Source: Yuukianura sp. NJ FZ-2021 (lineage: Eukaryota). Taken from it: a stretch of 64,000 nucleotides of DNA. The number at the start of each line of letters is the position of its first letter. Position 1 is the first letter of the stretch. This document shows positions 1 to 44,775 of the stretch, piece after piece. The stretch covers positions 5,084,001 to 5,148,000 of the forward strand of contig CM102287.1 in assembly GCA_046563655.1 (NCBI GenBank). Reading direction: 5' to 3'. Both the position numbers and the translations under genes were made by a program. Below the pieces are notes generated by a model that did no database searches, was not told the origin of the DNA, and was given only the letters and a program-made list of their open reading frames with translations.

Positions 1-541
1 CTTATGGCAGTCGACTGGGACAGAACGGGTAGTTCGCTTTGCCTCAATTCCTGTCCGCCCTCTTCCTCACTCGACCAAGATGAAATTGAAGTAAAGTGTT
101 GAAGACGCTCTGTTCTACCGTGGAAAAGTACGAAGATCTCCTGGCAGCCTTAGGTTAGGTTAGGGATTTCCTTTTGTCATCTTCGTTTCATCTACACTTG
201 CGGCTGAGAAATGTGTTGGAGACGTGTTTGGAACTTATGTCAGTTCAAGAGAAATTTTTAGATATGAGAAAATATGGGAAACTCAAAATGTTCTAATTTA
301 AATCATTTAATTTAGTACATTAATAATTTATTAAAAAGCCAGGTTCAAATTATTTTTATGTTTTATGGGCTTGGTCTATGGTCGCTAAAGGCGTGGTTTT
401 AAGAATATCCTACTTGACAAAGGTGTTTCCCAACTTCTTCTAACAAAAATACACTTTTACATGAATGAAATTATTACAATTTTAGGGAAATTTTAGGAAG
501 TGAAAATTTTCATTTTTTTTATCAAACGCGATGCGAAGTGA

Positions 542-1463
542 TTAAGCCCAACCAAAGAAAGATTCAACAACTATAGCAACAAATTCAACGGCGATTCCTC
601 CCTCGATCAAAGCCTCTCCAAGTTCAGTAATTTCGGGAAGACGCTTCAAGCGTTGCCATGCAGCGGCCATTTCAGGTTGACGGAGTCGTTGAATGAGAGC
701 GATGGCGGCGGGATCCTCTGATTGGTAAAGTTCAACGGTCAGCACAAACATGTCATTCACTGGAAGAACTTCAAGCAATTCCTCAAGTAGTTTTTGAATT
801 GACCGCCCCAAATTGGCGTCGACAACAAAGGCGACTCCGTTGTTGACGGTGCCATTGTCCTTCAAGTCCCAGCCGAAGAAGGCACGAATCCGATTCAGCG
901 TTTTGTAGATGCTCGTAGCGCCGTTGTCGTAGAACCACTGTGCAAGCTGAAACCGAGAAATACAAAAGGCTTAGGCCAATTCAAGTTTTGCCAATTCAAT
1001 TGCCTTTTTGAAAGTATTTGTATACTATGAACTTACCCGTTGATACTCGGGATCACTAGCCAAGTGCCGAGCGATTGCCTTGCCCTTGGCTCCACGCAAG
1101 TAGCGAAAAACCGCATGGGCGTCCGGATCATTGGCAAGTTTTTGAATCAAAAATTTCGCCAATGGTTCTTTGTCGACGAGGGCAAAAATTCGACCAAAAA
1201 GTTCGCCAATGTCGGGGTTTGAAATTTCAACTGTTTGCAATTCCTTTTCGACTTCATCTGAATCTAAAAGGGATAATTTTTTGCATGTATTTTTTGCAAA
1301 CAATTTTTTTTGCTTTGAATAGATACCTGTTGGAAGCCATACCGTGGCAAATCACTATAAGACTAAACGTTTTGCAAAAATTTTACCTAAATTTACCTTT
1401 CAATGGGCTTGTTGAAACGAATCCAACGCAGATGCAAACGAAAACAAAAATTTGAAAATTCAT
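542..1463 (-). CDS. Secreted insect major-allergen (MA)/protein G12-like protein, 3 exons
   Basis: Signal-peptide exon MNFQIFVFVCICVGFVSTSPLK (ATG 1463). Then ELFGRIFALVDKEPLAKFLIQKLANDPDAHAVFRYLRG...LAQWFYDNGATSIYKTLNRIRAFFGW and a second helical repeat ending VESFFGWA. Resembles the two-repeat Bla g 1/G12 (PF06757) unit. Confidence 0.65.
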
Positions 1464-2052
1464 TTTGTGTTTTAGTTTACTAATTTATAACAATCAAGAT
1501 TTACACTACAAGAAGTAAGCATAAAATGCCCCAAGCTTCAGATTTGAAATGACTACGAATTTTTAATTGCAGCCGAATTTAAAATCAGAAACACCCCAAC
1601 CGCAGTAAATGTTTAATGTTTGTCAGTTTGTCCAAACAAAAGCATAAAAATTTTAAAGTAATCGATTAACGCGAAATAACTAGCACAATGGATGGACACT
1701 AAAATCCATAAAATGAACTGCCAAAAGTATTCGAAATTTTAGAAACAATGGAGTTTTAACCAAATTTATAGCTTTATAAACAAATCCTAACATTTTTGTT
1801 AAAGTTTTTGGAAAAAGTGAGTCAACTAAATTGACTTTCATGCCGCAACCTTTTAATTTTTCAAGCGAAATTTGTGTCATAAAAATATTAAAGTCTCTCT
1901 TTTTTGTGCATCAAAAAGCGTCAAAAAACATGTGGTATTTAATTCAAAATAGTGAGTTTTTTAAACATGTTTTGATTTTTTTTTTAAATGAAATGTCCTT
2001 TTTCGAAAATGACTTTCGAAGTTTTTCGAGGATCATGAACTACCTGAAGTCA

Positions 2053-5000
2053 TCATTCTTCAACTTCCGTCGTTGGAGGAGGTGGTGGATTGAATTCAGA
2101 CACGTTGAAAATGACCGTAAAAATTGTTTCACGAACTTGAATTTCCGTGTAACTTCCAGTGTCGGGGTCAAAGGTCGCCGTCACTGCTGGATTCATAGTT
2201 TCAAATTGTTCCAAATATGCATCCTTGTCAGTTTCTAGAACTTGTCTGTTCACTTCCCACAACTTGATGTACTTTTCCACGGCTCTACACGCTTTTTTGA
2301 GTCCATCGACAACATCTTTTTGAATTGAAACTGACAAGGGGTCAGAGGTCAAAACTTCACTAAATGAAGGAATTACAGTAGTTGGATCATTGAGAAACTG
2401 AATGACGCGTGGAAATGGTCGAATGGCACTACAAATTTTTCCATAAATCCCGGTAATCATTTCCGCAACTTGCATAATTGTTGGACTGAATTCAAATTTG
2501 TCATTTGCACCTCGAATGACATTCAATTTGAAAATTGCCGGCGGCGGACCATGCTCGTCTCCACGAATCGAATTCCGCAAAACTTCCATCGCTCGACGAA
2601 AATTTGTAGTAATGGCTTCTTCAACAATAGAGTCAATTGTGTTCAAATACTTCAGCCACTGGACCTTGACATCTAAAAATTTCAAAAGACAATTTTTTTT
2701 TTACTTTTTTGAAATTTTTTTTGAAATTTGTGCAAAAATTTGTTGGCTAACCTGCACCGTCCTCTCTAAACATTTCAAAAACCGATCGAAGTATGAGCGT
2801 CACATCTTTGTATTTTGTTGCAATTTTCAGAATTGCTTTTTCACGGATCTTGCGTTGAAAATCGTTGAATTCCGAACCTTCGAAAGTTCGTTTTCGGCTC
2901 ATCTTGATCACGAGGTACTTTGTCATACTTTTGACGAGTTTTCCAATTCGGACGTTTGCCAATTTATAGTCGTTCGTAAATCCTTGAACTTTGTTTGCCG
3001 CTTGACGACAATCTTTGATATAAGAATCAGACACATCTGAAGCCCAAGTCAATCGAGTCAATCCAGGATAAACTTTTCGATCCAAAAGTTTGATTCGTTC
3101 TTTAAAAAGTGAGCGTTCTTCAGGGGACAAAGAAGCGACTATTCGATTATAGTCTTTGACCACAAGTAAAACCGTTTCGCGGAGGGAATGAAGACGATCT
3201 CTTTCAGAAAAAACTTGACGAAGAACTTCCGGAACTTTTCGCTCAAGTCGAACCCAAACTGCTGCTTCTGTGATGTGACGGTACAAAATTTTGTCAAAGT
3301 TAACTTCAATCATTCCCGGTTTGAAAGTACTTCGAATCATAAGCGGAATGTCGAGTCTTGAAGTCAAATCCTTTGGTCCTACTTGTTTTAGCCATTCTTC
3401 GTAAAATTGGTTAGAAGATTCTTCCAGGACAGATGTAAGCACTTTGTACTGCGCTACGACATCGTCACCATATCCACAGTCGGGGAGCCACTGAAATCAA
3501 AGTTCGAATTTTGAAAAACCGAAGTCTTCGAAGTTTTTTATGTGTTTTCAAAAAGTGTTTTTAGAACAAACCCAAGCATCCTTGATGCACTGATGACTTG
3601 CATCGAGTCGTCGCTTCATAAATAGCGCCCAAGCTCCTTTGCCAGCCAGCTCGGGATAAGTGAGCGGAAGCGGCAAGAGATTTTGAGCGTGGAGCCGCTT
3701 GACTTGTGCAATTTCTTGTTCAAACATTTTGTAGAGCTTGACGGTGAGCTTGTCGTAGGCACGGATGATACTGTCACGTTGGTAAAACGAGTAAAAACAC
3801 TCGAGTAAAAGTATTCCTTGTTGCAAATTTGAAACAGATTCGAATGAAGTCATCAGTACTGTTTGAATCATCATTTCCATGTCTTTCACAGCCACTTTGA
3901 AAGCGCTCATGTACTGGTGCCACTCGGGATGCCGAACGCTTAAAGCGATTTTGTAGTGAGTAGAGAGAGTGTGAAGTTGCCGATCAAACATTTTCTCAAC
4001 TTCGATCATCACTGTAAGTCACATTAAAGATGATCCAAGCTTTCCCGTTTTCAGAGTTCAAAATTTTAGAAAATTTTGAAAAGTATCTAAAATTCTGAAA
4101 ATTATGTTTCCTGAGCGTACCTTTTGTTAAGTCGGAAGCCTTCGTTCCTGGATAAAGCGGCAAGTCTTCTTGGTTTCCCTGTACACGTCTCGCAAAAAGT
4201 CTTTGACAAGTGCAAACTTCTAGCAAATCGCGAATTCTCTGCACAGAAGCGTCCAAATGTGCAAAAATTTTGTCATATTCCAGAAGCCACGCTGTGTACG
4301 AATTCATGGAATGCATTTTTTGAGCTTCAAAGTACTTTGTACGCCAAAGGAGCAGAAAGTTAAGACATTTTGTAAGATTTTCTTCAGCAGATTCAATATA
4401 TCCGTTGAAGACTTGGTGAACATCGATATTTTGTGTACATTTCATGATGAAAATGTTGCTGAACTTGCGCAGTAGTCCGTTCAGTTTTTCTTTGGTGTTG
4501 TAGTAAGGTGCATTGATCCAAATGACACGAACGACCCAGAAAATAGTCTTGAGTTGTTCTGGAAGATCGTTGATATTCGATTCGTGAATTTTTTCACACA
4601 GTTCACGAAGGGCCCCAAGATAATGCAGATTTGAAATGGCTTCGATTGTGCCTTGAACGATTTCTTGAGAGATTTTAATGAAAGATGGAATGTAAGGAGA
4701 CTTGATGATCTGCATGATGTCACGTACGAGACGTACAGGCCGACTTTGGATCTGCTTCATGAGGTCACTCAAGTCCAAATCTGAAATTTTGAAAGTATTA
4801 TGTTAGGTTACCCGGAAATTTTTTTGAAATTTTTCAATTTTTAGAAAAAAAAAGTTACATTTGTTCTCCCAAAATGCAAGTTCGTCCATGGGCCCCGCCC
4901 AATCTTCTGGATCAATCAGAGTTTGTGCAGCCAGTACTTCTTTGATTTGTTTGTTCCACTGGATAATCGTATCTACAAAAAATGAAATTGTGATTTTTCT

Positions 5001-5297
5001 TTTTTAGAAAAACCTAACCAAAAATTAACGTGTTAGTAAAGGCTAACCTTCCAGACGTGAACAAAGTTCTTTGTCCCGAGACGCAATGTCAATTGGAAGG
5101 TTGATGACTTCCGGTGGAACGACCAGTTTGGTCACTGCATCATGCTGTCTAGGCGGCGGAATTGAACTAGTGCTTTGTCCTAATCCGACTTCTTTTTCTG
5201 GCTCCTTTTCGACAGCACCTTCCATCAAATCGCCCAACAGCTCATCGTCAATCGGAGCAAAATCCAAATCAGCGTCATCCATACTTCCTCCAGGCAT
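2053..5297 (-). CDS. DNAH2: Axonemal dynein heavy chain 2-like, N-terminal tail (DHC_N1) only, about 940 aa
   Basis: Six GT-AG exons (5297-5048, 4972-4859, 4780-4121, 4011-3572, 3490-2752, 2672-2053) total 2823 nt in frame. RDKELCSRLEDTIIQWNKQIKEVL, GPMDELAFW, RVIWINAPYYNTKEKL and PGLTRLTWAS match the DNAH2 tail. Ends PPPPPTTEVEE then TGA TGA. Confidence 0.85.
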
Positions 5298-5552
5298 GAT
5301 TGCGGATATTTAGCTCCTAGATTCAATAAGCTCCTCAGGTCAAAGGTCAGCCAGTTATGGCTTTAGTTTCTCCAAGTAAGTTCACTAGTATACAGTTCTC
5401 GAGAAAAATGAAGAAATCGGAGCGACGTGATCAACTCAGCGACAAAGCAAAATGATTAAGTCGAAGGATTTCAAAATGCCAAAAAATTTTTGGAACGATT
5501 TGAAAACACGATGTTTCGATGTTTGTTCAATATATTTTCTAACGGCCGGGCT

Positions 5553-5566
5553 GTTTCCATGACTAC
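5553..5566 (-). promoter_or_regulatory. RFX X-box-like motif upstream of the DNAH2-like gene
   Basis: GTAGTC-AT-GGAAAC on the minus strand fits RTHNYY-WT-RRNRAC, about 255 bp upstream of the ATG. A forkhead-like TGTTTGT lies at 5520-5526. Confidence 0.45.
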
Positions 5567-5984
5567 AAAAAAAAGCCCCCAAGCACATTCGTCTCACTCG
5601 TCGTCTTGTGAAGAATGTAAATATTTTTGAACAAAAAAAGTTTTTCTAGGGTCAAAGGTCAGAGGTCAAATGGGCACGGGGTCATTTGGGAATACCGTTA
5701 TTGTTCTTACCATTTGACGTCACTAATCCGCGAATGGGGCGAGAAAAGATGTTGCAAACACAAGTCAAAAATTGCACGCGGGAATTTGAATTGAAGCACA
5801 TGACAATTTTGGCTTTGCTGACACAGCCGCAAGCCCAAAAGCAGCATTGCAGAAAGAAGCAAAAGAATTTTAGGATTTAGTAAATAAGATTGAAGTAATT
5901 AATCGTTTTAATTGAGTTTGATTACTTAGTTCATAGTGTTGTACTTTTACTTAGGTTAGTTGTAACGTAGCTCGCCCCGTCAAC

Positions 5985-8159
5985 ATGGTCAAGAAATTCC
6001 TGAGTAAGAAACAATATTTTGATCATTCCATTGGAAAATAGCGTTAGATTTGATTTGGTTCTTGTTGTTTTGCAAGTGTTAATTTTTGTTTTACTTTTCA
6101 GAAAGTAAGTCAAAGCGAGTATCAGCGAAGAAGCGGTATAAGATTGAGCGGAAAGTACGAGAACATAATCGAAAAATTAAGAAAACTGAAAAGGCCAAGG
6201 CACGGATTCATAGTAGGAAGCCGAAGATCATTACAGTACCAGGGGATTGTCCTTTCAAGGAAACAATTCTGCTTGAATCAAAAGCTGTGCGAGAAAAAAT
6301 TAAGCAACGGAAGCAGGCACATAAGGAAGTCGTAAACGCTAATCGTAAGCTGAAAAAAGAAGCACTGGTTGCGGCAAAACGTGGACTGCCGGCTCCTTCC
6401 AAACCTGCCGAAGTTTCGACACAATCCAAGGCAAACACTGAACAACCACAAGCGCCTACAACTGAAGCAAATGCAGTGGCAAGTTTTGAAACGTTGCTGA
6501 AACGAGCACAAGATCGAGGTTATCATTTCGAGAAAGTGGAAGAGGCTAACACCAAGCGGGACCCGAGCCTCAAAGCCTTTTACAAAGAATTTCAACAGGT
6601 ACAACTGCTAGAAAAATGTTGGTATGCTGTGTTGTGTTGGAGCATTGCTCTGATGCTGATCGCTGTTTGTTCCATCGATTTTAGGTCATTGTAGACTCAG
6701 ATGTGATTATTCAAGTACTGGATTCTCGAGATCCTTTGGGAACGCGAAGCGCTGAAGCGGAAGAAGCTGTCAAGGGGCACAGTGACAAGAAGTTGATTTT
6801 GGTCATGAACAAATGTGATTTGGTTCCGATCGATAATTTACAAAACTGGATTTCCTACTTGAAACAAACGTGAGTCAGATATTGATAAGTCATTTCGCCA
6901 TTTTATAATACTCTATTCTAATTCATATCTTAACAAATTAAAGTAACGATGTCAAAAACATTTTTACATTTTGAATGTACAATTTCAGTACGGGATGGTC
7001 TGTACTGCCATTCAAGGCAAATACGCAGAAGCAGAAAGACAGATTTGGCTCTATAAAGTCAGTCAACATGAACAATCAAGCGGGAACAGACACCAAGAAA
7101 ACCGTGGGTATTTCCGACTTATTAGGCCTGTTGGGAACTTGGGCCAGAGGAAGTGCTGGTGGCCTGACTGTTGGAGTAATCGGAATGCCAAATGTTGGAA
7201 AGAGTTCGCTCATCAATTCACTCAAGAGGTCAAAAGCTTGTAATGTTGGAGCAAAGCCTGGTGTTACTCGGTAAGGCATTCTGCATTATCCATAATTAGA
7301 ACTCCGAGAAACTAGATCTTCTTTCCGATTTTTGTTTTCAACTCCTGCTGTATTTTTTTCAGTGCCTGTCAATTGGTTCATTTGGATTCGAAGTTGCGTC
7401 TCATCGATTCTCCTGGAGTGATCTTCTCTAAGGATAAAGGAAACGAAGCCATGAACATTGAAACCATACTGAAGCGTGTTCCAAGGGAAACGCTGATGAA
7501 TCAGTACGGAATTGAGCAATACGGAGACGAAGAACAGTTCCTCTGCTTGATTGCCAAGAAGTTTGGACAGATGAAGAAAGGTGGAGTTCCGAATCCGACT
7601 GCTGCAGAACAGAAGATCATTCATGATTGGAACACGTATGACTTTTTATTTCTATTTTTAAAATCCTTTTTAAAAAAAATCTTGATTCGTGAAATTTGAA
7701 TTTGCTTGCAGTGGAGCCATTAAATTCTTCACCGTTCCGCCTGAACTTCTTTCGACCACGACATCCACCGCCTTCGTTTCGGATCTTGCCGAACCTTTTA
7801 CGCTAGACAACTTCCAACCAACATCACTAACTCCAGATACAGAAATGGAAACTGAAGAAGCAGTACCGGAAGTAGAAATGGAAGAAGAGAAGCCGGTTGG
7901 ACGAATCACAAGAAGTGCAGCCAAGAAATCAGTATCTTTTGCCCTAACTACTGAAGTTCTTGGAAACAAACGACAACTGAGGAGTAAAGCCGCTGCAGCC
8001 GAACCAGTTGTGGGAGTAAGTCCACAAGAAAAATCTAAAATGCTCCACGGTCTCGTCGCCACGAAGAAGCCACTGCTAAAGAAACTTCGTAAAACGAAAA
8101 AGAAAATAGCCAAGCAAGCGTCCAACCTGGCAGATATAATGGAAGACTTTAATTTGTAA
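5985..8159 (+). CDS. GNL3: Nucleostemin/GNL3-family circularly permuted nucleolar GTPase
   Basis: MVKKFLKSKSKRVSAKKRYKIERKVREH (GN3L_Grn1 N-terminus), DSRDPLGTR, G4 NKCD, G1 GMPNVGKSS, G2 PGVT, G3 DSPG, KKGGVPN. Multi-exon. Confidence 0.92.
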
Positions 8160-11200: not shown

Positions 11201-13339
11201 ACTACACAAAGTAATTGACGTTAGTTTTTTTTAGTTACCTTCCAATGTTGGAAAGAAAGTCATCGCGGTGACACAGCGTCCTTTCGAGTATATTGGATCA
11301 GTGTAGACATGGTATTCTTCCAGAACAACCGACTGTTCAGTGTACTCGATGTCATGGCCCTTGAGGGCTGTGAGCCCTTTGTAGTCATCTTTGGCCAAAT
11401 TCATCATTTCGTTTTGCAGCAGAGCACGCTGGAGAGCCTTTGTTTTCTAAACAGGAAAAAAGTTATGCGAATGTCTTGCTAAGCTTCACAAATATTCGAG
11501 CATTGGAAAAGTCAAACCTTCACGAGTCCATCCGCCGCCTTTTGCATGATGATCTTCACAAGTTCTGGATCCAGGAACTGATTTTCGTATTGGCAAATCT
11601 TGTTTCGTTTAAACGAAAATCCTGTTTGAGTTGACGCGACTGTTTTCTGCGGCATCACTTGAACTCCGACGTCCAATTGGGCCATTTCCAGCAGCGGCAG
11701 TTTTGTAGGATCAACGGATTCAAATTGAGAGTAAGCGTTGATATTCCCATCAAAAGGTGTGTCAGTGAATTCAAAAGGACGATTGAAGGCTTCGAGGTAT
11801 CGATACGCATGCATTGTAATCTGAGATTCAATAGCTTGTTTCAAATAAGGCGATTATAATCCATTTTAGATTAATCTACGGTTGCGCGGTTACTCCAGCC
11901 CGAATATTTTTGCAGATTAATCCAGCTGCGAAAATGACAAAAGGCAAGAAGGATTGGACATTCATCAAGCGGTCGGAGAACGTTGAGGAGAGGTCAGAGA
12001 AAGTTATCTAGCGGCTGGAGAACGTCATCGAGCGGTTGGTGAAAGTCATCGAGCGGACAGAGAAAGTCATCGAGCGGTTGGTGAAAGTCATCGAGCGGAC
12101 GGAGAAAGTCATCGAGCGGAAGTGAAAACACGGTCAGAGTGACGATTACGATTAGGGAGCACTCCATAAATGAAATGTTGGAATGTGCGTAGCTTTCTCC
12201 AACCGCTCGATGACTTTCTATGACCGCTAGATGACCTTTACCTACCGCTAGGTGAAGCTCTCTGACCGCTGGATGATTTTCTCTTACCACTCGATGACTT
12301 TCTCCGTCCGCTCGATGACTTTCACCAGCCGCTCGATGACTTTCTCCGATCGCTCGATGTCTTTCTATGACCGCTAGATGACTTTCTCTGACCGCTAGAT
12401 GACTTTACGTGACCGCTCGATGGCTTTCCCTGTCTCGTCGCATGGTTTTCTAAACTTGGAATTTCAGATTAATCTGAAAGAATCCTCCTTTTTGTGGATT
12501 CTTTTTTGGGCGATTATAATCGGAAAAATAATCGGGCTGAAGTAACCGCGCAACCGTAGATTAATCTAAAATGGATTATAATCGCCTTATTTGAAACAAG
12601 CTAATGTATTCATAATTTTTCAACTTTCCTCAAGTATGAAATGCACTGGAAAAATGTTGTTGAACGTAAAACTTACCAAAGGACGCTCAGTATATTTCGC
12701 TTCAAGGTCAACTTCGACTTCACTTCCTTGTGTTCTCCAATTCCGCGGAACAATTGAGGCAAGGTTTCTCAAAAACTCCTGGAAAAATATGAAAAAATGA
12801 TCAAAATTTTCATACTACAAGGTAATTTGAAATGAAATTTTTTAGTTTACTTCATCTTTCTTCCTTGGATCATAAAATTCCTTCTTTACTTTCGGAGGAT
12901 TTATAACTAAGTTGCGTCCTTCCAACGAAGTACAGATGAAGTGCGAACATCCTGTGGACCGCGTTTCGTCAACTCCCACGAGAATTGCAAAATCTGGATA
13001 ATGCTGCAAAAGTCCATAAAAAATTTGTTGAAAATTAAGAATTCCAATTAGATTAACATTTTTTATTGCATGTCATACCGTAAGAGCCTCCCGAATCGGA
13101 TAAAACTCCGACGCTTCGCTGTAAATGTAGATGTGAAGCTTGACCCGTTTGACGCTAATGTATTCATGAGGAGGTTGTCGTTCTTGTAAGTTCGAGATTT
13201 CAAACCAGTCCAGTGTTGTCGGAGTTATGTTGATTCCGACGACTCCCGGAAACGTTGACACGTTGACAAATGGAGTCAAATGAGTCGATGGAACCTCCAC
13301 CACGTTCTTTTCCGCATCGGGAATCGAAGTTTCACTCAT
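8265..13339 (-). CDS. DNAI3: Dynein axonemal intermediate chain 3 (WDR63/IC140), multi-exon WD40 protein
   Basis: LDVGVQVMPQKTVASTQT, ALLQNEMMN, FVLFWDMKEPSRPQLMLDAPSDVF, GGCANGQV-VLWDL, WSNTRPGVFFVGTREGSLQVWDL match WDR63. Long acidic C-terminal tail. Confidence 0.88.
11832..12603. mobile_element. Non-autonomous foldback/MITE DNA transposon (about 770 bp) in a WDR63 intron
   Basis: 63-bp perfect terminal inverted repeats (11832-11894 / 12541-12603), extending to about 80 bp with 2 mismatches. TSD reads as TA, or as AAT (11830-32 / 12603-05). No transposase ORF. Confidence 0.9.
11957..12432. repeat. Two oppositely oriented arrays of a 21-bp unit (GAAAGTCATCGAGCGGNNNNN) inside the MITE
   Basis: 6 clear plus 2 degenerate units at 11957-12124; 11 reverse-complement units at 12202-12432. 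Confidence 0.9.
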
Positions 13340-31268: not shown

Positions 31269-33288
31269 TCAGAATCCAGCATGTGGGTTGCCACCATACA
31301 TTGCTGGAGCTTCAATGTTGTACTTCTGCTTGACTTGAATTTGGACTTCGGCAGCTTTTAGTAAAGAGCTGAGGATCGTCAGTTCTTGGTAAGTTCTTGA
31401 AAATTCAAGGGCCTTCTTAATGGCAGCTTTGGCATTCTCCATGTTTCCAGCCTGCAGTTCCAGGGTTCCAATTGTTTCGTAAATAAACTCATTTCGATCA
31501 TCAATTTTGAGACTGTCGTGCAAAAGTTCCAAAACTTTCTTCAAGTCGTTGTCAATCTGAAACTTGGCAATGGCTTTGTGAACGTAGACAGCAGCATTGG
31601 TTGGATCCAACTTGATCACCTCATCAAACTGTTGAATTGCATCCTGGTACTGGCCAATTTCAGTTAGTATTTGACCGTACAAGTTGAAAACGTCGGGGGA
31701 TTTGTTGAATTTTCGCATGCATCTGGTGAAGTTTTTCATTTTGGATTGCACATCGCCACCAGTCATGACTGCAATACGGTACTCAATGTAGCACTTACTC
31801 GCAGCTGAAAAACAGACATTGACATTAGCAAATTCTTAGGTTAAAACTCATAGAAACTTCAAAAAAAAAAAAAAAAAAAAAAACAATTCTCTTTTTCTTA
31901 CCAGCCAATGCAAATTCAGGTTCAATTTCGTGTGCTTTGTTGATTTGGACGATTGCAGCTTCAAAATCTCCCTTTGTCAGCAAAATCTGGCCTACAAAAG
32001 GAAAAACAACAAAGATGAAACTTTTTTAATAAAGCAATAATTTTAATAAAGCAATAACGTTAATTAAGTGCTGAATGTCTCACCCCTTTGATGGTAAATG
32101 TCAACACAGTCCGGACAAATCTTCTCTGCCCTTTGAAAGTACTCTTCGAACTTATCACTGTCTTGCATTGCCACTTGACAACCCATCTTCACACAGGCAC
32201 TTGCTTTGAGTTCATTTGTGGCAGTCACAGATTCCATGACCTTGGTTAAATCCTCCAGCACTTCATCATGGTATCCCCAAAGGTGCCTAAACGTTCCTCG
32301 GAGAAGGTAAGCTTCATCTAGGTAATTGCTTCCAGGAAACTCAATTTCTTGTGTGCAAAGTTCAATGATTCCCTCATACGTCCGAGCATTAAGTAACTGT
32401 AAGGCCCCTGCAAATCCACCGTACTCCCTAATAGAGTATAAAATAAGAATCAACAGCTGATTTAACATGTTAAGTAACTAAATGAACGCATTACTTGTCT
32501 GGCTCTTGAGCATCGTCACCCACATGACCATTGATGAGAGGCTCAGTCGAGGGGTCGAGCCACCACTTCGTCACAGGGTCACAGTGAAATGAACGCAGGA
32601 AGGAACTAATGGTTTGGTTGGAAGGGAAGCAAGGTTTCTTCAGCTTCATTAGTTTGTCAGCTTGCATAACACCAATAGCTTTCAACACTTCGTCTGCTGC
32701 TTCAATTGAGCTTGGAACTGTAAACGACTCAAGGACACAAACGGCAGTGATGTCTTCTAAGCTTTCATCCATGAACCCCGTCTGACGATATGCCTTGGAC
32801 CTGCGTGCCAGTGCTTTGATGTATCTGGGGTTCAGTTTAAGTGCAGCACTGGATTCGATAATTACTTGAGGCCATTCATTTAGCTTCTCAAACACCGCAG
32901 CTCGATTCTGGTATAAGGCAGCCAAATCGTCTGAAGGAGGTGATTCTGAAATTGCTTGATTGTAAAGGTCAAGCGCCGTTGCAAAATCGGCTTTCTTGAA
33001 GCACTCGTTCCCTTGTTCCTTTAGCCTGACATAACTGGGTCTAACATCCTCTTTCCGTTTCGGGACTCCATCTTCCTGAACTGATTGCTTCTCGTCATTC
33101 TTGGAACTTGATTCAGTTTCACGAGAACTAAAAGCTCCATTCCACCAGCAAACACCGAGTGCTGCAACTGCAATAGGAACTCCAATTGCAAGGCTAAGTT
33201 GAACACCGCGAGGCAACGACGACAGGGAGTACGAGGTAGACGGTGCTGTCGGCCTATCAGTGAACGCGACCGGCTTCGACAGTGACAT
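31269..33288 (-). CDS. TOMM70: Mitochondrial import receptor TOM70
   Basis: N-terminal anchor LSLAIGVPIAVAALGVCWW; clamp TPRs (LKEQGNECF, YQNRAA, YIKALARR); LEDITAVCVLE, LLRGTF, DIYHQRGQ, YETIGTLELQAGN. 4 exons. Confidence 0.92.
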
Positions 33289-34030
33289 AACGGGCCGCAG
33301 TTGTCAAGTGGGGTGAGGTGATGGCCTTCGACGTCAACTCCAACGCTGATTGAGCACAATCTACGAATTACGCGATACTTGATGAATCAACCGCTCGGCC
33401 AGTATGGCTCCACAAATACTGAAAATAAAAATAAAAATCGTATTTCAAAATCTATCCTTAATTGCTCTTTCATGGACTGTTTTTTTTTAAACAGCTGACA
33501 AACTTATTTAGTACGTGTAAGTCAACTTTCGGGCAGGGCTACTACAAAGTCTACTTCTACTTTACAAATCCTTGGTACAATGTTAATGATCGATAATTCT
33601 AGTTAACATAGAGTTAGTAAACTAATCGTAACCATTAAGTAATTGAATATGAAATGGAGTGACGAAATCACCTGATCCCCAGAAGTGAGAGAACTGGACG
33701 AAGATGATTGGAATTGCACTTAAAAAATGTCCCAGGCAGCAGACTATAAAAACAGAAAACAGATACTTCTTAACCTCATAACACGTGAGAAATTCCGCTA
33801 AGTTCGTCAGAAGTGGCTTTGATCACACCTAAACCGCCGAAATTAATTAAATTTGCGTATGTAGGTTATTTGCTAATTAGTTCCGCCAAACTTAAATTTC
33901 ATCTCTCCGATTTGACAAGAAGCTACGCACTTGCACTTTCGATCTTCTACATAGTTGGGCAAATTGAAACAATAAGAATATTTTTGTTTTCATCAATAAT
34001 GGTTTAATTACTAATTAAGTTTAACTTTAT

Positions 34031-35609
34031 GTGCAAAAATTTTTGGATCACTTAAAAAATAACAATTTGTCTTTAAGTGTCAATCAGTTTGGCTGTCGAA
34101 AAAATCATTCGACTGAACAGGCTATGATATACACTGTGGACAATATAAAAAAACAACTGGATTTGGGTAAAGTTTGTTTAATGGTCAGCATAGACCTAAA
34201 AAATGCTTTTCCAACAGTACATAGAGAAAACTTTCTTAAAAAACTGAAAGAACAATTTAAAGTATCCGACTTTTGGTTACGGAGCTATTTCTCGGACAGA
34301 AAACAGTTTGTACAGATTGGTGACACGAAATCTGAAGAGTTGGATAATTTAACAGGTTTGATTCAAGGAAGTGTGTTGGGACCGATTTTCTTCACATTTT
34401 ACATAAATGATTTAGAAAAAGTATTATTGGTATCCAGGCCACAAATTTTTGTGGATGATACAAATCTGATGTTTAATGGAGAGTGGAATGAAAAAATGGC
34501 AGTAAGAGAAGGTGTGAATTCTGAATTACAACGGGTGACTGATTGGATTGATGAAAACTATTTAGTAATAAATAGTGACAAAACTAAAGTCCTTATTTTT
34601 GGAAGTAAAAAACAGTTGGAGATTTTTGGCAATTTTGAAATAATGGTAAATGGCTATGTGATTGAGTCTTCAGAAGAAATCAAAAGTTTGGGATTACTAT
34701 TACAAAAGGATCTGAAATGGGACAAACATATTGACTTGGTAATTAAAAAATGCTACGTCATAATAATCAATGCTTATAAGGTTAGAGAATTTCTAACTGA
34801 AAAAGCTAAAAAAATATTTATGGAAGCGATGGTACAATCAATTCTAAAATATATGTTTGTTCTATACGGACAAACTACGATGAAGAATTTAAAAAAAAGT
34901 CGAAAAAGTAATCAGAACAATGGCGAGATTCGTAACTGGGTTAAAGAAATTTGAACCAGTTGCTGAGGAATTAACAAATAACTTAAAATGGCTTCTTCCA
35001 AAATTCTTTTTTGAGTTTCAAGTTTTGTGTACAACACACAAACTTTTAAATGGAAAGCAAGTGAGTGCATTTGATGACTACTACAAGTACACTTCTGAAG
35101 GGCATAATTACCCGACTTCAAGGTCAATAAAAAACTGTTTAACTTACGACCAAAATAATAAAGGAAAATTTTGGCAAACGACATTCCAAGCACGTTCAAT
35201 TCAGTTATGGAACTCTTTACCCTTAGAAATTACAAAAATCAAGAATTATCAAAAGTTTAAGGACTCAGTTAAAACGATGTTAATTAAGAAGCAAGGACAT
35301 TCATTAGGCATAAGTGACTAGAAATAAGTAATTAATTTATAGGATAAGTTTGTTTGCGGCGTCATTAAATTCTAAGTTAATTTTAAGTGAAATCTTAATT
35401 AAATAAGTCTAAGCTAAGTTAACGAGTAATTTACTTATTATTTTAACATTTTAACAAAACATATTTTGAAATTAAGTTAAGTAAAGACGAGCGACTGATT
35501 AATTCAATTGACAAGATGTAAGACCACTACCGTGGGTATCTTGTCACTGATAATTATTACTGAACAATGACAAGAATAAATTGAATAAAAAAAAAAAAAA
35601 AAAAAAAAA
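34031..35609 (+). mobile_element. 5'-truncated non-LTR retrotransposon (L2/CR1-group LINE), frameshifted RT
   Basis: QFGCRKNHST, IDLKNAF, QGSVLGP, FVDDT, INSDKT, KSLG; C-terminal ARFVTGLKKF...LKWL...LWNSLP. +1 frameshift in an A8 run (34891-34898). 3' hairpin 35509-35546, AATAAA and an A23 tail at 35587-35609. Confidence 0.9.
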
Positions 35610-39364: not shown

Positions 39365-41853
39365 TCAGTTCCTGTAAATTTTGTGTGACCAGCGATGTGC
39401 TGTTGCTGTTGGAGACACAACCGCCGCGACAGGAATTTGTGAAGCATTTGATACAGGAACGACCTTGGATCTGGAAGTTCTGAAGTTCGTCGGAAGAATT
39501 CTCTTGCTGATGGAATCGTAAGTAAGTTTTGGATATTTTTCGTGTTCGGGATCCGGAAGATAGTTTTGGAGATTAGTCGGAAGTGTTCGGTACTTGCTCG
39601 GTTTTACCGGTTTGTTAACCCCCGGTACATCTTCGTAGTTTTTAGCACTGTAGGGCATCCAGTCTACTATTTTTGGATCTTGTCTCAGTCCTGGGCTGTT
39701 ATAGCGGGTATCAAAATTCGGTTGTTGAGATCCAGCTAGAGTGGCTGGCGTATGTTCAACTTGAGAAATAGCTGCAAAAGTTTCGCTGAATCGCTGTTTT
39801 CGTTCATATACCTTCGACGATTTGTCTCTCTCTTGTCGACATTTTTTCCTGGAAGGTTTTGCGCATTGTCTATAGTGTTCCTCCGATTCGCTTCCGGCAG
39901 CAACGTACGGATCTTCGTCGGTGATGGAGTCACGCCGATAGTTGTTCCATTCGGGCCGATTTCGGAATGCGGGTTTGTTCGTATTCGGAGTCCACTGAAG
40001 CAGATTCTGTTGTTGGTCGGATCCTCTCGGCGGCGTTCCGGAAGAAAACCGAAACATGTCATCTTTCGGTCCATAGATGTCCACTGGTGGGTCTCCGATT
40101 ATCGGTGGTGGCTGTCCATATGTACTATGTGGGGGTCCAAAGTTTTGCATTGGTGGGCCAAAGTTCATCGGTATTTGATTTCCCGGTGGAGCTCCACGGT
40201 TTGGAGATCTGGAAGGCGCTGGAGTTCCGGAAATCCATTGATTTGCTGGTCTGGAAGGAGCTGGAGATCCGGAAATCCATTTTGTCCAACCAGGGGTGAC
40301 TGGTGGGCTGGAAGTGGCTGGTGGCAGATAAGTTCGAGGTGGCTGCGTGGGGCCTGGCCAGGAGTCACTTTGTTCTATCACCAGAACTGGACTTTGGTGG
40401 GACTGACGCGGTGGGGCTGGAAGACGCTGCTTTTGGTCTGGAGGTGGCGCTGGAGTGTTCACTGGGCCCCATTCGCTCGCTGGCTGATACCCTCCTGACG
40501 ACGGTTGCTTCGATCCAGAATAATGGCTGTTTTGTTGACCTTTTTGACGTTGGTCGGGTGGTGGCCCACCTTGGTGGGGCTTAGATGGTGGGCCATATGT
40601 GGGTTGTGGTGGACGATTTTGCTGTGGGGGAGTGTTGTGAGCAAGGGGCGGTGGTGGAGACCAAAATGGTGGGCCATAAGAAGATCGCGTGGGTTCCGGT
40701 GTTGGGGGGCCATATTTTGTTGTTACCGCGGAAGTGCTGGTGCGATGATTAAAATCTGGCGGAATCGAAGAAGTAGTTGGCGGCGGGCCTTTTGTCCAAC
40801 CTTGGTTTTGATCCTGTTGATCTTTTGTCCAACCTTGGTTTTGATCCTGTTGATCTTTTGTCCAACCTTGGTTTTGATCCTGTTGATCTTTCGACCATCC
40901 TTGATTTTGATCTTGGTTCTGTTGATTCTTTGACCAACCTTCATTTTGAACTTCATTTTGTTGATCTGTTGTCCAAGCTTGATTTTGGTTTTGTGGAACT
41001 TTTGTCCAAATCTGATCTTGGTTCTGTTGAGCTTTAGGTCTACCCTGGTTTTGTTGACCTTTTGACCAGCCGGGACCCGGTTTTCCCCAATTCGGATCCG
41101 GCTTGCCTGGTTTCCAGCCCTGATCTGTATTTTGATCTTGTTTCCAACCTTGCTGCTGTTTTTGTTGCTGTTGACCTTTTTGAATTTCTGGAGGCGGTGG
41201 GCCATAGATCGGTCCATAACTGATGAAAGCTGGAGCGTACTTTTGCTGCTGTTGACTTTTTGATCTCCCCCTCCCGGGTTTGTCTTTCTTTTGAAACAGT
41301 TTGACCAGAGCCGACGGAACTTGAATGATAATGTTCGTTTTGTCATTGTTCTTACCAGTTCTTCTCTCCTTTGACCTTCCCCGCCCGGACGTCGGTGTTG
41401 CTGTGGCATTCCATAGCGCATGCCCTCGTCCGCTGCCCAGCCCATGTTCCACGGCTGATCTTGTTCCTCTGACGACCTTTTGCTAAATTGCCAAAATCTT
41501 ACGCCCCCTGGTCCACATGCACTGCATCTGGTACCGCTTGATTCCGGGTACCGATCCGGGTACCTCCCTCTGCCACCGATACCTTCTGCAGACCGATCCG
41601 TGTACCTCGGTCCTAAACCTCTTCCCTCTACAGATCGATCCTGGTACCCACTTCCGGTACCCCTTCCTTCTCCAGACCGATCCGGGTACCTATGTCTGGT
41701 ACCGGTACCTTCTTCAGACTGATACCGATATTCCGGGCTGTTTTCACTTTCGTACGAAGCATCCGGTCGGAAGTTGTACACATCGCCTTTGATAAATGGA
41801 GCACTACGCAGAATCAGTTCCAAAACGACAAAACACGTCCAAATGCTTTTCAT
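39365..41853 (-). CDS. Secreted Gln/Pro/Gly-rich low-complexity protein (cuticle/extensin-like), 2 exons
   Basis: Signal-peptide ORF joined to the 695-aa ORF by a predicted 68-nt phase-0 intron 41355-41288 (GTAAG...TTTCAAAAG; REEL|KDKPG). YGPP and TYLPP motifs; WTKDQQDQNQG repeats. Confidence 0.7.
40790..40930. repeat. 33-bp coding tandem repeat (11-aa WTKDQQDQNQG unit)
   Basis: TTTTGTCCAACCTTGGTTTTGATCCTGTTGATC three times perfectly, plus degenerate copies toward 41160. Confidence 0.9.
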
Positions 41854-43336
41854 TTTTTAAAGAAACTAAACAATTTTGACATGGTTGAGACAAAACAGAC
41901 AAAATGCAACTAAATTGCGAAGCCTCCTTGAGTGAAAGTGAAGTCTCAATTTTTTTTACAACTTTTTTGTTTGAAAAAAATAAATTTTATGAAAAATCGA
42001 AATGAAGGTGAGAGGATGAAGCGATGCTTGAAGATGAGGGATGTGGTGTGACCCACTTGTTTTAGGCGGAGTGTTCAAAAGTGAAATGACGACTCCATTG
42101 CGTACAGTTCGTTTCTTTTAAAGACAGACAAGAAAAAAGTGGAAAAAAAGTTTCGTTTTCAAAATATTATGATCATGGGAGTGAAATTTTTTTTATTGCA
42201 TATTTCACTTCACTTTTTAAAAACGTTGGCCAATTTTAGTTAGAAAATAGACACCTTACATTACGGAATGACAAGAAAAGTTGCAGAGTAGGAGTGTGAC
42301 TTGTCATTTCAATTAAAAATTGCAACGTCCAGAGAAATTTTTTATGTGCTGATGGTAATCATATTATTCAAAAACTTTTCTTAATAGTACGTACACATTT
42401 TTCTTTTGAAATTAATGAAACGTACTTTATAAAATTCACGCAGTGAGTGGGTGTAACTGACCATTAGGCATTTAGAGCACTTACTTTAACTAGTTAGGTG
42501 AAACCTTAATTATAATCATTTAAGTGATAACTATGTTTTAGACATTTTGTGAAAACACCGCGGCGGCTTCTGTTCTGCAATTAACGTTTATAACACTTAC
42601 TGCAATAACAGCATAAATACGAATAACAACTCACCGCCTTTCCTAAAGGAATTTTCAAAAATCTCAAAAAACAAAGTGCCGAAAAACAATTGAAAAAACA
42701 TCGCTGTGTTCAAAACAACTTTTACAAAGCTAAACCTTCCTCGTTTTACATTGTAAACGGCAGGATGTGCAAATGACCTTCCGAAACAAGGAAAACATGC
42801 AAATTAAACATCTCCGCAAATAGGTAAATACAATTTTTTTTTAAAATTGTCCAAACTGAATTAAAAAAAAGTTGAACAATGGATTTTTTTTTGAAAATTA
42901 AGTTTTTGACGGAGAGGAAGTTGTTTAAATCGTGCCAAAAGTTCTTCAAAATTTCGAAATATGTCAACTAACATGGTAATTTTTTTTTTGAAAAAAAAAA
43001 ATAATAAAAAACACAGTGCCTTGCCATATTACGTCAATCTGAGATTACCCAACCGAAAAGATTTAGGCAAATATGCCACGCCCAAAAGTCTTTAACTGTT
43101 TACACAGAGCCATTCGTTTATAAAACAAAAAAGTCTTCAGTTTTTCGAAATTTTACAAAAACTGGAGAAAACAAACTTTATAAAATTAAAAAAAAACAAG
43201 TTTTATAAAAACTGGTGGAATTTGGTTTACACTTTTAATGGAGGCTTCTACTTAGAGTTAATCTTCAGTAGGAAAAAGTTGCTAAAAATTACTGTTATTA
43301 GTAAATTCAACTAAAAATTGACACAGCTAACTTAAA

Positions 43337-44719
43337 TTAAAAATTATCAAAGTACTTGTCAAAATGGTCAGTAAATATTTTTGATTCTTGTTGTTTAAAA
43401 AGATGATGGGGATTAGCATTAGCGGAATTGTTGTTGTTGTTTCTGTCAAAATTGGCAACAGAACTAAAGTACTTCGTGTCACCTCCGTTCCTTAACTGTG
43501 GTACAAACGGCGCTTTTGCTTTTCTAGTTAAAATGTCGTTCCAGTTGAACTTTGACCTTGTAAACCACTCGTGATTTTTGAGATCTGCAAATCCATTTGG
43601 CCACTGTCCAAGTCTCCTAGAAGCGTCCACAACCAGTAGTTTTTTGATGAGATCCTTCACTTCTTTAGATGCAAGTCTCGGAGGAGTGTATCTTCCAGAT
43701 ACAATTTTCTCGTAAGTGTCCATTCTACTTTCACTGTAAAATGGAGTTTGTCCCACTACAAATTCATAAATGAGGACACCAAGTGACCAGTAGTCGACTG
43801 CTCGGTTGTAGGATTGACCAGTGACGATTTCAGGAGCCATGTAGTCCTTTGTCCCACATTGTGTCGTGGCGCGTCTATCTTTGCGAAGTCTTTTGGAACA
43901 ACCGAAGTCACCTAACTTCAAGTACCCGTCGGCATCAATGAAAATGTTTTCGGGTTTTAGATCTCGACAAACAAGATCCATGTTATGAAGGTACTCAAGG
44001 GCCAGGATGACCTGTGACACGTAAAACCGAACTTGGGCTTCTCCAAATCCTGAACTAACGGCTTTCTGTCGCTGCAAAAGGTGCCAAGCGTCTCCGCCTG
44101 AAATTATAACAAACACTTTTTACTAACTTTTTAACAAAAAGTTAAAACTTTTTTAGTATTTAGAATTTTGCATTCAAAATTTTTTGGTTTTTGAACTTTT
44201 GAAACACTTACCTGGAAGATACTCCATGAAAAGATAGAGATTGACTGCATCTTGACCTTGAAATTTGAGATTCACTAAAAATGGAAAGTTAACAGCAGCA
44301 AGTATCCGTCGTTCGGTTTCTGCTTTACGAATTTGTTTGTGTTTGAATATAAGTTGTTTTTCTAAAACTTTTAGAACAAAGTAGTTTCCGGAATCATATT
44401 GACGAAGAAGCACTATCGGTCCAAAGCATCCGTTGGCAAGGACTTTCACTTGGAGAAAGTCCGACAATTCAGTGTTTCCGACACGCCCCAATGCCCAAGC
44501 CGTTTCGAAACAAGATTTTGAAAAACGGAGCCATTCTGGTGAACAGAGGTTAACTGAGGTCATGGGGTCACCTTCACTTCCACTGTATCCACTGCTCGTA
44601 AAAGCTGACCCGCCCGAGGCAGTTCTTGTTTGGCTACTTCCAGGAGTTCCGGAGTCAATATCCGAATAACGCAAATCCCTCGCTCTCTGCGATACTTTCT
44701 TCCAAAAACCAATTGCCAT
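43337..44719 (-). CDS. cAMP-dependent protein kinase catalytic-subunit-like AGC kinase, divergent, 2 exons
   Basis: ERRILAAVNFPFLV, NLYLFMEYLPGGD, CRDLKPEN, DFG, CGTKDYMAPE, AVDYWSLGV, KAPFVP, GDTKYF, C-terminal FDNF hydrophobic motif. Confidence 0.85.
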
Positions 44720-44775
44720 ATTTTCATTGGTCAGCGCCAAGGTCTCGGTCGCGGATTTCTCAAAATGTCAATTCC

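What the first reader, a model, noticed from the sequence alone, without database searches (positions are those of the whole stretch)
2053..5297. Intact, motor-less DNAH2 (inner-arm dynein f/I1 beta) gene: a natural tail-only heavy chain
Seen: six exons splice into an undisrupted 940-aa ORF covering only the DNAH2 tail. Similarity runs to KDAYLEQFETMNP...YTEI, then a Pro/Glu cap and tandem stops, and an unrelated gene starts about 600 bp further on. No linker, AAA ring or stalk is present. The usual N-terminus appears replaced by a short acidic peptide. Known: DNAH2 is normally over 4000 aa, and in Chlamydomonas motor-less N-terminal fragments of I1 heavy chains still support I1 assembly. Inference: this may be a retained scaffold subunit giving a one-headed dynein f, for example in sensory cilia or modified sperm, rather than a decaying fragment.
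Basis: partly seen in the sequence, partly recalled or inferred. Interest (0 to 1): 0.78.

Follow-up and report, generated by a model that had tools for sequence, protein, structure and literature searches.

The report
Selected tail-only inner-arm dynein gene
An arthropod gene encodes only the anchoring tail of a flagellar inner-arm dynein and is kept intact by selection, but whether the missing motor half is encoded elsewhere in the genome could not be checked.

Summary
Six minus-strand exons (5297..2053) splice through five GT..AG introns (75-109 nt) into a 940-aa ORF that ends in tandem TGA codons. Exons 2-5 cover the whole DHC_N1 tail domain. The class is DNAH2 / I1-beta, not DNAH10.

One correction: homology runs 11 residues past "YTEI", to F923 (window 2107). 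The suggested CAA|GTTCGT donor therefore lies inside conserved coding sequence. Seventeen non-homologous residues and the stops follow.

No linker or motor exon exists anywhere in the 64 kb.

New evidence:
- All 18 listed CDS differences between the window and contigs of two studies are synonymous.
- The tail evolves no faster than that of a relative that keeps its linker.
- The break, cap and stops recur in three runs.

So it is not a decaying fragment.

Still open: the window ends 2 kb downstream, no whole genome is held and no RNA run is listed. A distant continuation, a separate motor gene or a full-length paralogue cannot be excluded.

Best reading (about 0.5): a selected, stand-alone, motor-less I1-beta tail protein.

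The parts
5048..5297 (-). Exon 1: ATG at 5297, 83 codons plus 1 nt. Acidic N-terminal peptide with no Pfam match.
4859..4972 (-). Exon 2: start of DHC_N1 (profile positions 7-40).
4121..4780 (-). Exon 3: DHC_N1 43-241. Best solved relative is the Chlamydomonas 1-beta heavy chain (E 7e-26).
3572..4011 (-). Exon 4: DHC_N1 258-403.
2752..3490 (-). Exon 5: DHC_N1 414-562. DNAH2 scores E 1.2e-47 against DNAH10 at 5e-8.
2107..2672 (-). Homologous part of exon 6: the post-DHC_N1 tail segment, equal to DNAH2 residues about 815-1020, ending at F923.
2056..2106 (-). Non-homologous 17-residue cap, NVSEFNPPPPPTTEVEE.
2050..2055 (-). Tandem stop codons TGA TGA.
   Evidence: covered by X2 contig record 11
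2131..2139 (-). Rejected because the 11 codons after it are conserved coding sequence.
1938..1943 (-). ATTAAA hexamer 110 nt past the stop, a possible poly(A) signal. The motif's meaning is recalled, not tested.
1464..2049 (-). 3' flank. The window's version is a lower-depth haplotype in X1 and X2. X2's major contig diverges from the window below 2031.
542..1463 (-). Downstream same-strand neighbour: a secreted insect-allergen-repeat protein gene.

Best explanation
The locus is a genuine gene that makes a 940-aa (108.8 kDa) protein consisting only of the N-terminal tail of the I1/f inner-arm dynein beta heavy chain (DNAH2 class).

Kept: the complete DHC_N1 region and the roughly 200-residue segment after it.

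Missing: the DYH2-5-8 coiled coil, the linker, the AAA ring, the stalk and the C-terminal domain.

The ancestral coding sequence is broken in mid-exon at window 2107. Seventeen unrelated codons and two stop codons follow.

Shown: purifying selection has kept the protein intact.

Inferred: it still does what a dynein tail does. It would pair with the alpha heavy chain (DNAH10 class) and the IC140/IC138 intermediate-chain complex and dock at the I1 site of the axoneme, without producing force. That would give a one-headed or regulatory I1/f complex like the engineered Chlamydomonas strain with a motor-less 1-beta chain.

Whether a separate motor-bearing DNAH2 gene also exists in this genome is unknown.
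For: 1. Clean six-exon ORF with five GT..AG introns.
2. DNAH2 / 1-beta class. Exon 5 scores E 1.2e-47 (DNAH2) and 1.5e-32 (Chlamydomonas 1-beta) against 5e-8 (DNAH10). Exons 3 and 6 agree.
3. Purifying selection. Of the 40 substitution rows shown (355 more not shown), 18 fall in the CDS, and 18 of 18 are synonymous. Sites are 615 synonymous against 2205 nonsynonymous, so chance is about 1e-12 to 6e-9. Ten of the 18 are also carried by X5, a differently labelled organism from a second study. Intron 4 alone holds 9 listed differences in 81 nt. The neighbouring gene, as a control, gives 7 of 7 synonymous.
4. No acceleration relative to P0001, whose ORF continues through the coiled coil and DHC_N2. 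Over 687 shared columns, 0 of 5 outgroups are significant (p 0.09-0.85).
5. The break plus cap is bridged by contigs in three runs of two studies: X2 record 11 (2031-2336), X1 record 3 (2055-2364) and X5 record 28 (2063-2469), all without gaps. X2 record 11 also covers both stops.
6. The only relatives shown that cover this point and have sequence beyond it (P0001, P0003, P0042, 3 of 3) read straight through it. So the end is a DNA-level break, not a conserved intron site.
7. The four GTs between 2115 and the stop (ACG|GTCATT, AAC|GTGTCT, CGT|GTCTGA, GAA|GTTGAA) all lack the -1G/+5G pattern seen in 6 of the 7 donors confirmed here.
8. No dynein similarity in the 2 kb downstream or anywhere else in the 64 kb.
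9. The break lies about 20 residues before the coiled-coil domain of relatives.
10. Motor-less 1-beta tails assemble I1 in Chlamydomonas (passages of PMC3031465).
Against: - The window ends 2052 nt beyond the stop. No genome is held and no RNA run is listed, so a long intron, a second gene or a paralogue elsewhere is untested.
- The product (108.8 kDa) is shorter than the smallest 1-alpha fragment recovered in assembled I1 complexes, about 143 kD. The authors thought that might be the minimum (PMC2156140 section 27). That is a different chain and a different organism.
- The last 46 residues fold with pLDDT under 50 in isolation, on a 10-sequence alignment.
- Summed contig depth is 2-2.5 times the local baseline over parts of the tail in X1. 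This could reflect a second diverged copy. The tool warns that depth is not copy number.
- No listed contig bridges 2031-2034 with 31 letters on both sides. X2's major contig has a 29-letter loose end there that does not resemble the window's flank (84 of 500 shuffles score as well). The neighbourhood beyond 22 nt past the stop is therefore not independently confirmed.
- The presence of DNAH10, IC140 and IC138 in this organism is unknown.
Confidence: 0.5

Rival explanations
1. These six exons are only the 5' part of a full-length DNAH2 gene. The mRNA splices from a weak donor near 2064-2103 (or is trans-spliced) to linker and motor exons beyond the window's left edge, with the allergen-repeat gene nested in a long intron.
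For: - The window ends 2 kb downstream, so the sequence beyond it was never seen.
- Purifying selection and the unaccelerated rate fit a full-length gene equally well.
- A GT (AAC|GTGTCT, 2103) sits one codon after homology ends.
- One confirmed donor of this gene (AAT|GTAACT) also lacks both -1G and +5G.
Against: - The gene's other introns are 75-109 nt. This one would exceed 2.1 kb and contain a same-strand gene with its own start.
- No dynein similarity at 1-2106 at E up to 1.
- The candidate donors are poor.
- Three of 3 relatives covering the point read through it without interruption.
Confidence: 0.2
2. Split gene. Tail and motor are encoded by two separate genes whose products associate non-covalently to rebuild a working beta heavy chain, as in the cytoplasmic dynein of some basidiomycetes.
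For: [quoted passage not shown]
- Selection on the tail and the unchanged rate fit this reading.
Against: - No motor gene has been seen; none lies in the 64 kb.
- No axonemal example surfaced in the full-text searches.
- The break removes the coiled coil and the whole linker, so a new interface would be needed.
Confidence: 0.12
3. Partial duplicate or remnant with no function of its own. A full-length DNAH2 lies elsewhere, or the I1 dynein has been lost, and this fragment is transcribed noise or a young pseudogene.
For: - I1/f heavy chains are reported lost in some arthropod groups, Nematocera and Branchiopoda (passage of PMC5100056), so decay remnants are expected somewhere.
- Excess summed depth over parts of the tail in X1 might be a second copy.
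- Database 'tail-only' entries of 865-945 aa turned out to be fragments.
Against: - 18 of 18 listed CDS differences are synonymous, with none nonsynonymous.
- The ORF is intact over 2820 nt with all five introns clean.
- The same break and cap occur in a second organism at about 3% divergence, without gaps.
- No rate acceleration.
Confidence: 0.1
4. Assembly artefact. A misjoin placed unrelated sequence after a DNAH2 exon.
For: - No listed contig bridges 2031-2034 with 31 letters on both sides.
- The window's 3' flank is a lower-depth haplotype (61-79 against about 200-230).
- X2's major contig diverges from the window below 2031.
Against: The decisive features (homology end at 2107, cap, both stops) lie on the confirmed side. 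They are contained in single contigs of X1, X2 and X5, covering two studies. A misjoin at 2031 would change the neighbour, not the truncated ORF.
Confidence: 0.04

Closest known systems
DNAH2 (human 8j07_k9; 9fqr_D0) / Chlamydomonas 1-beta heavy chain DHC10 (8glv_Co) / Drosophila kl-2
   Same: The tail sequence matches. DHC_N1 is complete and the segment after it aligns to DNAH2 residues about 286-1008. The DNAH2 class scores best in 3 of 3 exons tested.
   Different: Those proteins have 4424-4513 residues with coiled coil, linker, six AAA modules, stalk and C-terminal domain. This one stops at the equivalent of about residue 1020 and has a shorter, acidic N-terminus.
Engineered Chlamydomonas 'I1-alpha' strains (ida2 rescued with a 1-beta transgene lacking the motor; Perrone et al. 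2000, as cited in PMC3031465)
   Same: A beta heavy chain reduced to its tail. There the tail still assembles with 1-alpha, IC140, IC138 and IC97 at the I1 site (passages).
   Different: Those are laboratory truncations; this one is natural and selected. The fragment sizes of the 1-beta constructs were not seen, because Perrone 2000 itself was not read. Assembly of the present protein is untested.
Split cytoplasmic dynein DHC1 of Agaricomycota (dhc1/dhc2)
   Same: A natural dynein heavy-chain gene whose tail-encoding part is a separate gene cut before the motor (PMC5100056 passages).
   Different: That is cytoplasmic, not axonemal, and its motor-encoding partner gene is known. Here no partner has been seen.
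Motor-less inner-arm heavy-chain genes of Naegleria noted earlier in this scan (e1-670155, e1-669818)
   Same: Described as tail-only dynein genes kept under selection.
   Different: A different class (DNAH6 type, single-headed), protists, and they retain part of the linker. These are unchecked AI notes and were not tested here.

Membership tests
Dynein heavy chain, I1/f beta class (DNAH2 / DHC6 / IAD-1beta) | N-terminal tail domain DHC_N1 | tested here: met
   Profile positions 7-562 of 562 over exons 2-5. E values: 2e-40, 4e-22 and 1.2e-31. Exon 2 alone scores 23 bits, below the cut-off.
Dynein heavy chain, I1/f beta class (DNAH2 / DHC6 / IAD-1beta) | Closer to DNAH2 / 1-beta than to any other heavy-chain class | tested here: met
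   Exon 5: 1.2e-47 (DNAH2) and 1.5e-32 (1-beta), against 5e-8 (DNAH10). Exon 3: 7e-26 (1-beta). Exon 6: 2.8e-17 (DNAH2)..
Dynein heavy chain, I1/f beta class (DNAH2 / DHC6 / IAD-1beta) | DYH2-5-8 coiled coil and linker (DHC_N2) | tested here: not met
   Present in P0001 (804-920; 991-1396) and P0010. Absent from exon 6 even at E up to 10 and from the whole window.
Dynein heavy chain, I1/f beta class (DNAH2 / DHC6 / IAD-1beta) | AAA+ ring, microtubule-binding stalk and C-terminal domain (the motor) | tested here: not met
   tblastn with three full-length relatives finds nothing beyond their residues 1024-1137. Pfam found no dynein family in 71 of the 112 ORFs of 90 aa or more. I left out 11 ORFs in the locus and 30 that overlap a longer ORF. 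Only the 64-kb window was searched.
Motor-less heavy-chain tail acting as an I1 scaffold | Co-assembles with the alpha heavy chain and IC140/IC138 and docks on the doublet | not testable with these tools
   No partner sequences from this organism are available, and no expression or proteome data exist.
Processed or decaying pseudogene | Frame disruptions or relaxed constraint | tested here: not met
   Intact ORF with introns. 18 of 18 listed CDS differences are synonymous. 0 of 5 relative-rate tests are significant.
Split dynein gene (tail gene plus motor gene) | A separate gene encoding the remaining linker and motor | not testable with these tools
   No whole genome is held. None lies in the window.

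The most novel reading that the evidence does not exclude
[quoted passage not shown] The tail would serve as a force-less scaffold that still builds the I1 regulatory hub with a single (alpha) head. That would be a natural counterpart of the engineered Chlamydomonas motor-domain deletion, and a possible intermediate on the road to the complete I1 loss reported for some insects and crustaceans.
Probability: 0.3. Interest if true: 0.75.

Novelty: new variant of a known kind. Interest (0 to 1): 0.55.

Why it matters
Dynein tails are usually treated as passive anchors for motors. A tail kept under selection without its motor would show that the I1/f scaffold, the docking and signalling platform around IC138, has a function separable from force production in a wild animal and not only in algal mutants. 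It would also offer a natural system for asking what a one-headed I1 does to sperm beating. And it would caution that surveys scoring dynein genes as 'present' or 'absent' can miss such partial survivors.

Tried and rejected
- Whole genome: not held. So the motor could not be sought outside the 64 kb.
- Expression: no RNA holder is listed, so expression is untested.
- Read laying: only short Logan contigs. The four joints listed have sides of 21-24 letters, and a self-BLAST of the flanks found no repeat to explain them, so I treated them as noise. Depth differences cannot be read as copy number. X4 laid only partial, low-identity pieces.
- Donor model: a heuristic intron finder gave 1636 mostly spurious candidates and was dropped. 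I compared candidate donors by eye with 7 confirmed ones instead.
- Relatives with the same end:
  - The exhaustive representative search found 95 hits, none above 58% identity.
  - The 865-945-aa hits that seemed to end at the same place are fragments or low-quality models.
  - The metagenome scan gave 1 locus (L001, 42% identity), cut by its contig end.
  - The word-indexed search among proteins of 360-2000 aa gave 1 hit, P0001.
- Lineage placement failed. The Cys-loop channel is at most 31% identical to anything named. The kinase's best hit (70%) is unnamed and all named ones are at most 49%. The Atlas gave no useful taxa.
- The cap as a remnant of the coiled-coil domain: MAFFT placed it there, but Pfam gives no support at E up to 10.
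- A 60-nt GT..AG intron removing the cap (2103-2044): the frame then stops again after 20 codons, by my reading. Rejected.
- Scan notes for this genome or for look-alike sequence: none.
- The supplementary dynein inventory of PMC5100056 (its figure S10) was not opened. It may say which arthropods lack DHC6.
Full report
WHAT IS THERE

On the minus strand, six exons (5297-5048, 4972-4859, 4780-4121, 4011-3572, 3490-2752, 2672-2053) are joined by five GT..AG introns of 75, 78, 109, 81 and 79 nt. They form a 2823-nt reading frame of 940 codons. It ends in TGA, followed at once by a second TGA.

Pfam places the complete dynein tail domain DHC_N1 (profile positions 7-562 of 562) on exons 2-5. Exons 1 and 6 match no family.

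Exon 6 aligns to residues 815-1008 of the 4424-residue DNAH2 and to residues 858-1044 of the Chlamydomonas 1-beta chain.

The class assignment is firm:
- Exon 5 scores E 1.2e-47 against DNAH2 and 1.5e-32 against 1-beta, but 5e-8 against DNAH10.
- Exon 3 scores best against 1-beta, at 7e-26.

The product would weigh 108.8 kDa. Its first 55 residues are acidic (14 D+E, 3 K+R), and similarity to a fish DNAH2 begins only at that protein's residue 152.

WHERE IT ENDS

Alignment with relatives shows it continues. The window's QVRETIFTVIF lies opposite QGQESIITVIF of P0042 and equivalent stretches of the others. In tblastn, 4 of the 8 relatives that cover this end extend to window 2107 (codon F923); the other four stop at 2134-2140.

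The proposed donor CAA|GTTCGT (2137|2136) therefore sits inside conserved coding sequence. Using it would delete conserved residues.

After F923 come 17 residues (NVSEFNPPPPPTTEVEE) with no counterpart in relatives. MAFFT's placement of them opposite the start of the coiled-coil domain gets no support from Pfam, even at E up to 10.

In relatives the DYH2-5-8 coiled-coil domain starts about 20 residues after the equivalent point, and the linker (DHC_N2) about 200 residues later. So the protein keeps everything up to the coiled coil and nothing after it.

An AlphaFold model of exon 6 (10-sequence alignment, mean pLDDT 64.9) is helical and reasonably confident to residue 159. It falls below pLDDT 50 for the last 46 residues.

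NO MOTOR IN THE WINDOW

Nine relatives, three of them full length (4430, 4665 and 4492 aa), were run by tblastn against all six frames of the 64 kb at E up to 1. Every dynein match lies between 2107 and 5132. The two others, at 11653-11853 and 50896-51075, have E 0.029 and 0.89.

A Pfam scan of 71 of the 112 ORFs of 90 aa or more found no dynein family. The 41 left out were 11 in the locus itself and 30 overlapping a longer ORF.

Downstream on the same strand, 590 nt after the stop, an insect-allergen-repeat gene begins with a signal-peptide-like exon at ATG 1463 and ends at 542. Upstream, a GNL3L-type GTPase gene runs the other way from about 5985.

IS THE SEQUENCE REAL?

No whole genome is held. 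Public runs holding the stretch are DNA only. Four runs come from one sample (organism A) and one from another study (organism B). None is on record as RNA.

Laid on window 1-8000, their Logan contigs are short. Even so, single contigs contain the end of homology and the cap:
- X2 record 11: 2031-2336, 3 differences, no gaps. It also covers both stops.
- X1 record 3: 2055-2364, 3 differences.
- X5 record 28: 2063-2469, 13 differences, no gaps.

The truncated ORF is therefore not a private error of this assembly, and it is shared by organism B.

What lies further downstream is less secure.
- The window's version of 1409-2034 is matched exactly, but by lower-depth contigs (61-79 against about 200-230).
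- No listed contig bridges 2031-2034 with 31 letters on each side.
- X2's major contig carries 29 letters before 2031 that resemble neither the window's flank nor any other place in it (84 of 500 shuffles score as well).

Haplotypes thus differ from 22 nt past the stop onward. This affects the identity of the neighbour, not the ORF.

IS IT UNDER SELECTION?

One search lists 40 of its 395 substitution rows, the best-supported ones. Eighteen fall in my CDS, and all 18 are synonymous. The CDS has 615 synonymous and 2205 nonsynonymous sites, so chance gives roughly 1e-12 to 6e-9, depending on the neutral synonymous share assumed.

Ten of the 18 are also carried by X5. Nine listed differences fall in the 81-nt intron 4 and two more in intron 1, together with three small indels in intron 1. 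As a control, the seven listed differences in the neighbouring allergen-repeat gene are also all synonymous, so the tail behaves like an ordinary working gene.

On a longer time scale I aligned the spliced tail (inside a script) with P0001. P0001 is the closest relative (51% identity) and continues through the coiled coil and linker. With five outgroups and 687 shared columns, the window's lineage shows no excess of unique changes: 66/59, 62/54, 66/48, 52/54 and 60/50, with p from 0.09 to 0.85.

A dead remnant is thus very unlikely.

DOES THE GENE GO ON ELSEWHERE?

This is the main open point. The evidence against a cis-spliced continuation:
- The other introns are 75-109 nt, whereas this one would exceed 2.1 kb and enclose a same-strand gene.
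- The four GTs between 2115 and the stop (ACG|GTCATT, AAC|GTGTCT, CGT|GTCTGA, GAA|GTTGAA) are poor beside the seven confirmed donors of this gene and its neighbour, six of which have G at -1.
- The three relatives shown that cover the point and have sequence beyond it read straight through it. The end of homology therefore looks like a DNA break in an exon, not an old intron.

The evidence for it:
- The window stops 2052 nt beyond the stop codon.
- One GT lies a single codon after F923.
- One confirmed donor (AAT|GTAACT) is itself weak.

I put this rival at about 0.2.

A separately encoded motor (a split gene) has a precedent in the cytoplasmic dynein of Agaricomycota, cut 'before the motor domain' and independently expressed (passages of PMC5100056; listing of PMC4540427). 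A full-length paralogue elsewhere is also possible. Summed contig depth in X1 is 2-2.5 times the baseline over 2404-3471 and 4540-4806. However, I had lowered the likeness threshold to 85, X2 shows a different pattern, and the tool warns that depth is not copy number.

HOW IT PROBABLY WORKS

Shown: a selected protein made only of the I1-beta tail.

Inferred from established knowledge of I1/f: the tail pairs with the alpha heavy chain, binds the IC140/IC138/IC97 and light-chain complex, and docks at the proximal end of the 96-nm repeat. It would not hydrolyse ATP or bind the neighbouring doublet.

In Chlamydomonas, strains whose 1-beta or 1-alpha chain lacks the motor but keeps the tail still assemble all other I1 subunits. 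Loss of the beta motor greatly slows microtubule sliding (passages of PMC3031465; abstract of PMC2156140).

A caution: no 1-alpha fragment under about 143 kD was recovered in assembled complexes. The authors thought that might be the minimum (section 27 of PMC2156140). The present protein is 109 kDa. Perrone et al. 2000, which describes the 1-beta constructs, was not read.

CONTEXT

- Gene content points to an arthropod, probably a hexapod: the insect allergen repeat, an insect cuticle protein, and a nearest named dynein relative from a springtail at about 33-36% identity.
- I could not place it more closely, and no relative above 58% identity to exon 6 exists in the libraries searched.
- In Drosophila the DNAH2 orthologue is kl-2, expressed only in testis, and I1/f is absent from chordotonal cilia (passages of PMC6367277). 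A sperm role is therefore likelier than a sensory one.
- Both I1/f heavy chains are reported absent from Nematocera and Branchiopoda (passage of PMC5100056), so arthropods do dismantle this dynein.
- My full-text searches listed no paper describing a natural tail-only axonemal heavy chain. That is a limited search of open-access text.
- Two unchecked notes of this scan describe motor-less inner-arm tails in Naegleria.

VERDICT

- The claim 'not a decaying fragment' is now supported by evidence.
- The claim 'natural tail-only heavy chain giving a one-headed dynein f' remains plausible (about 0.5 for a stand-alone selected product, about 0.3 for the full scaffold story) but unproven, because neither the rest of the genome nor any transcript could be examined.

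Noticed in passing
window 542-1463 (-): Secreted insect-allergen-repeat (PF06757) gene directly downstream of the dynein tail. It has a signal-peptide-like first exon. Seven of 7 listed differences from other contigs are synonymous.
   Followed up: partly
window 1409-2034: The window's 3' flank of the dynein gene is a lower-depth haplotype in X1 and X2 (61-79 against about 200-230). Other contigs leave the window at 1441, 1474 and 2031 into unlike sequence. This points to structural or strong sequence polymorphism between the two genes.
   Followed up: partly
window 2404-3471 and 4540-4806: Summed contig depth in X1 is 2-2.5 times the neighbouring bins, and five contigs overlap position 2951. 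This is unexplained. It could be a second diverged copy, pooled haplotypes or a related organism in the sample.
   Followed up: no
window 5985-8156 (+): GNL3L/nucleostemin-type GTPase gene (GN3L_Grn1, MMR_HSR1), divergently oriented, about 690 nt from the dynein start codon.
   Followed up: no
window 51282-53545 (+): Lebercilin-like (LCA5, ciliary) exon, followed by a 560-aa ORF with no Pfam match. So the organism keeps at least some ciliary genes.
   Followed up: no
window 31272-33303 (-): TPR-repeat gene with weak matches to the TTC21 (IFT139) ARM/TPR domains (E 2e-5 and 2e-4, below the cut-offs). Possibly another cilium-related gene.
   Followed up: no
window 39368-41856 (-): Overlapping 705-aa and 377-aa ORFs with no Pfam match, in the most G+C-rich (49%) and strongly AT-skewed (-0.26) part of the window. 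Probably low-complexity coding sequence.
   Followed up: no
window 34025-34951 (+): Reverse-transcriptase (RVT_1) ORF in an A+T-rich stretch (31% G+C). A retroelement fragment.
   Followed up: no
window 61644-63134 (-): Single-exon Cys-loop ligand-gated channel of 497 aa, only about 31% identical to the nearest named proteins (GluCl-like). A very divergent family member.
   Followed up: partly
window 43340-44767 (-): Divergent PKA-like kinase. Its best relative (70%) is an unnamed metagenome protein and all named hits are at most 49%. This shows the lineage is poorly represented among annotated genomes.
   Followed up: partly
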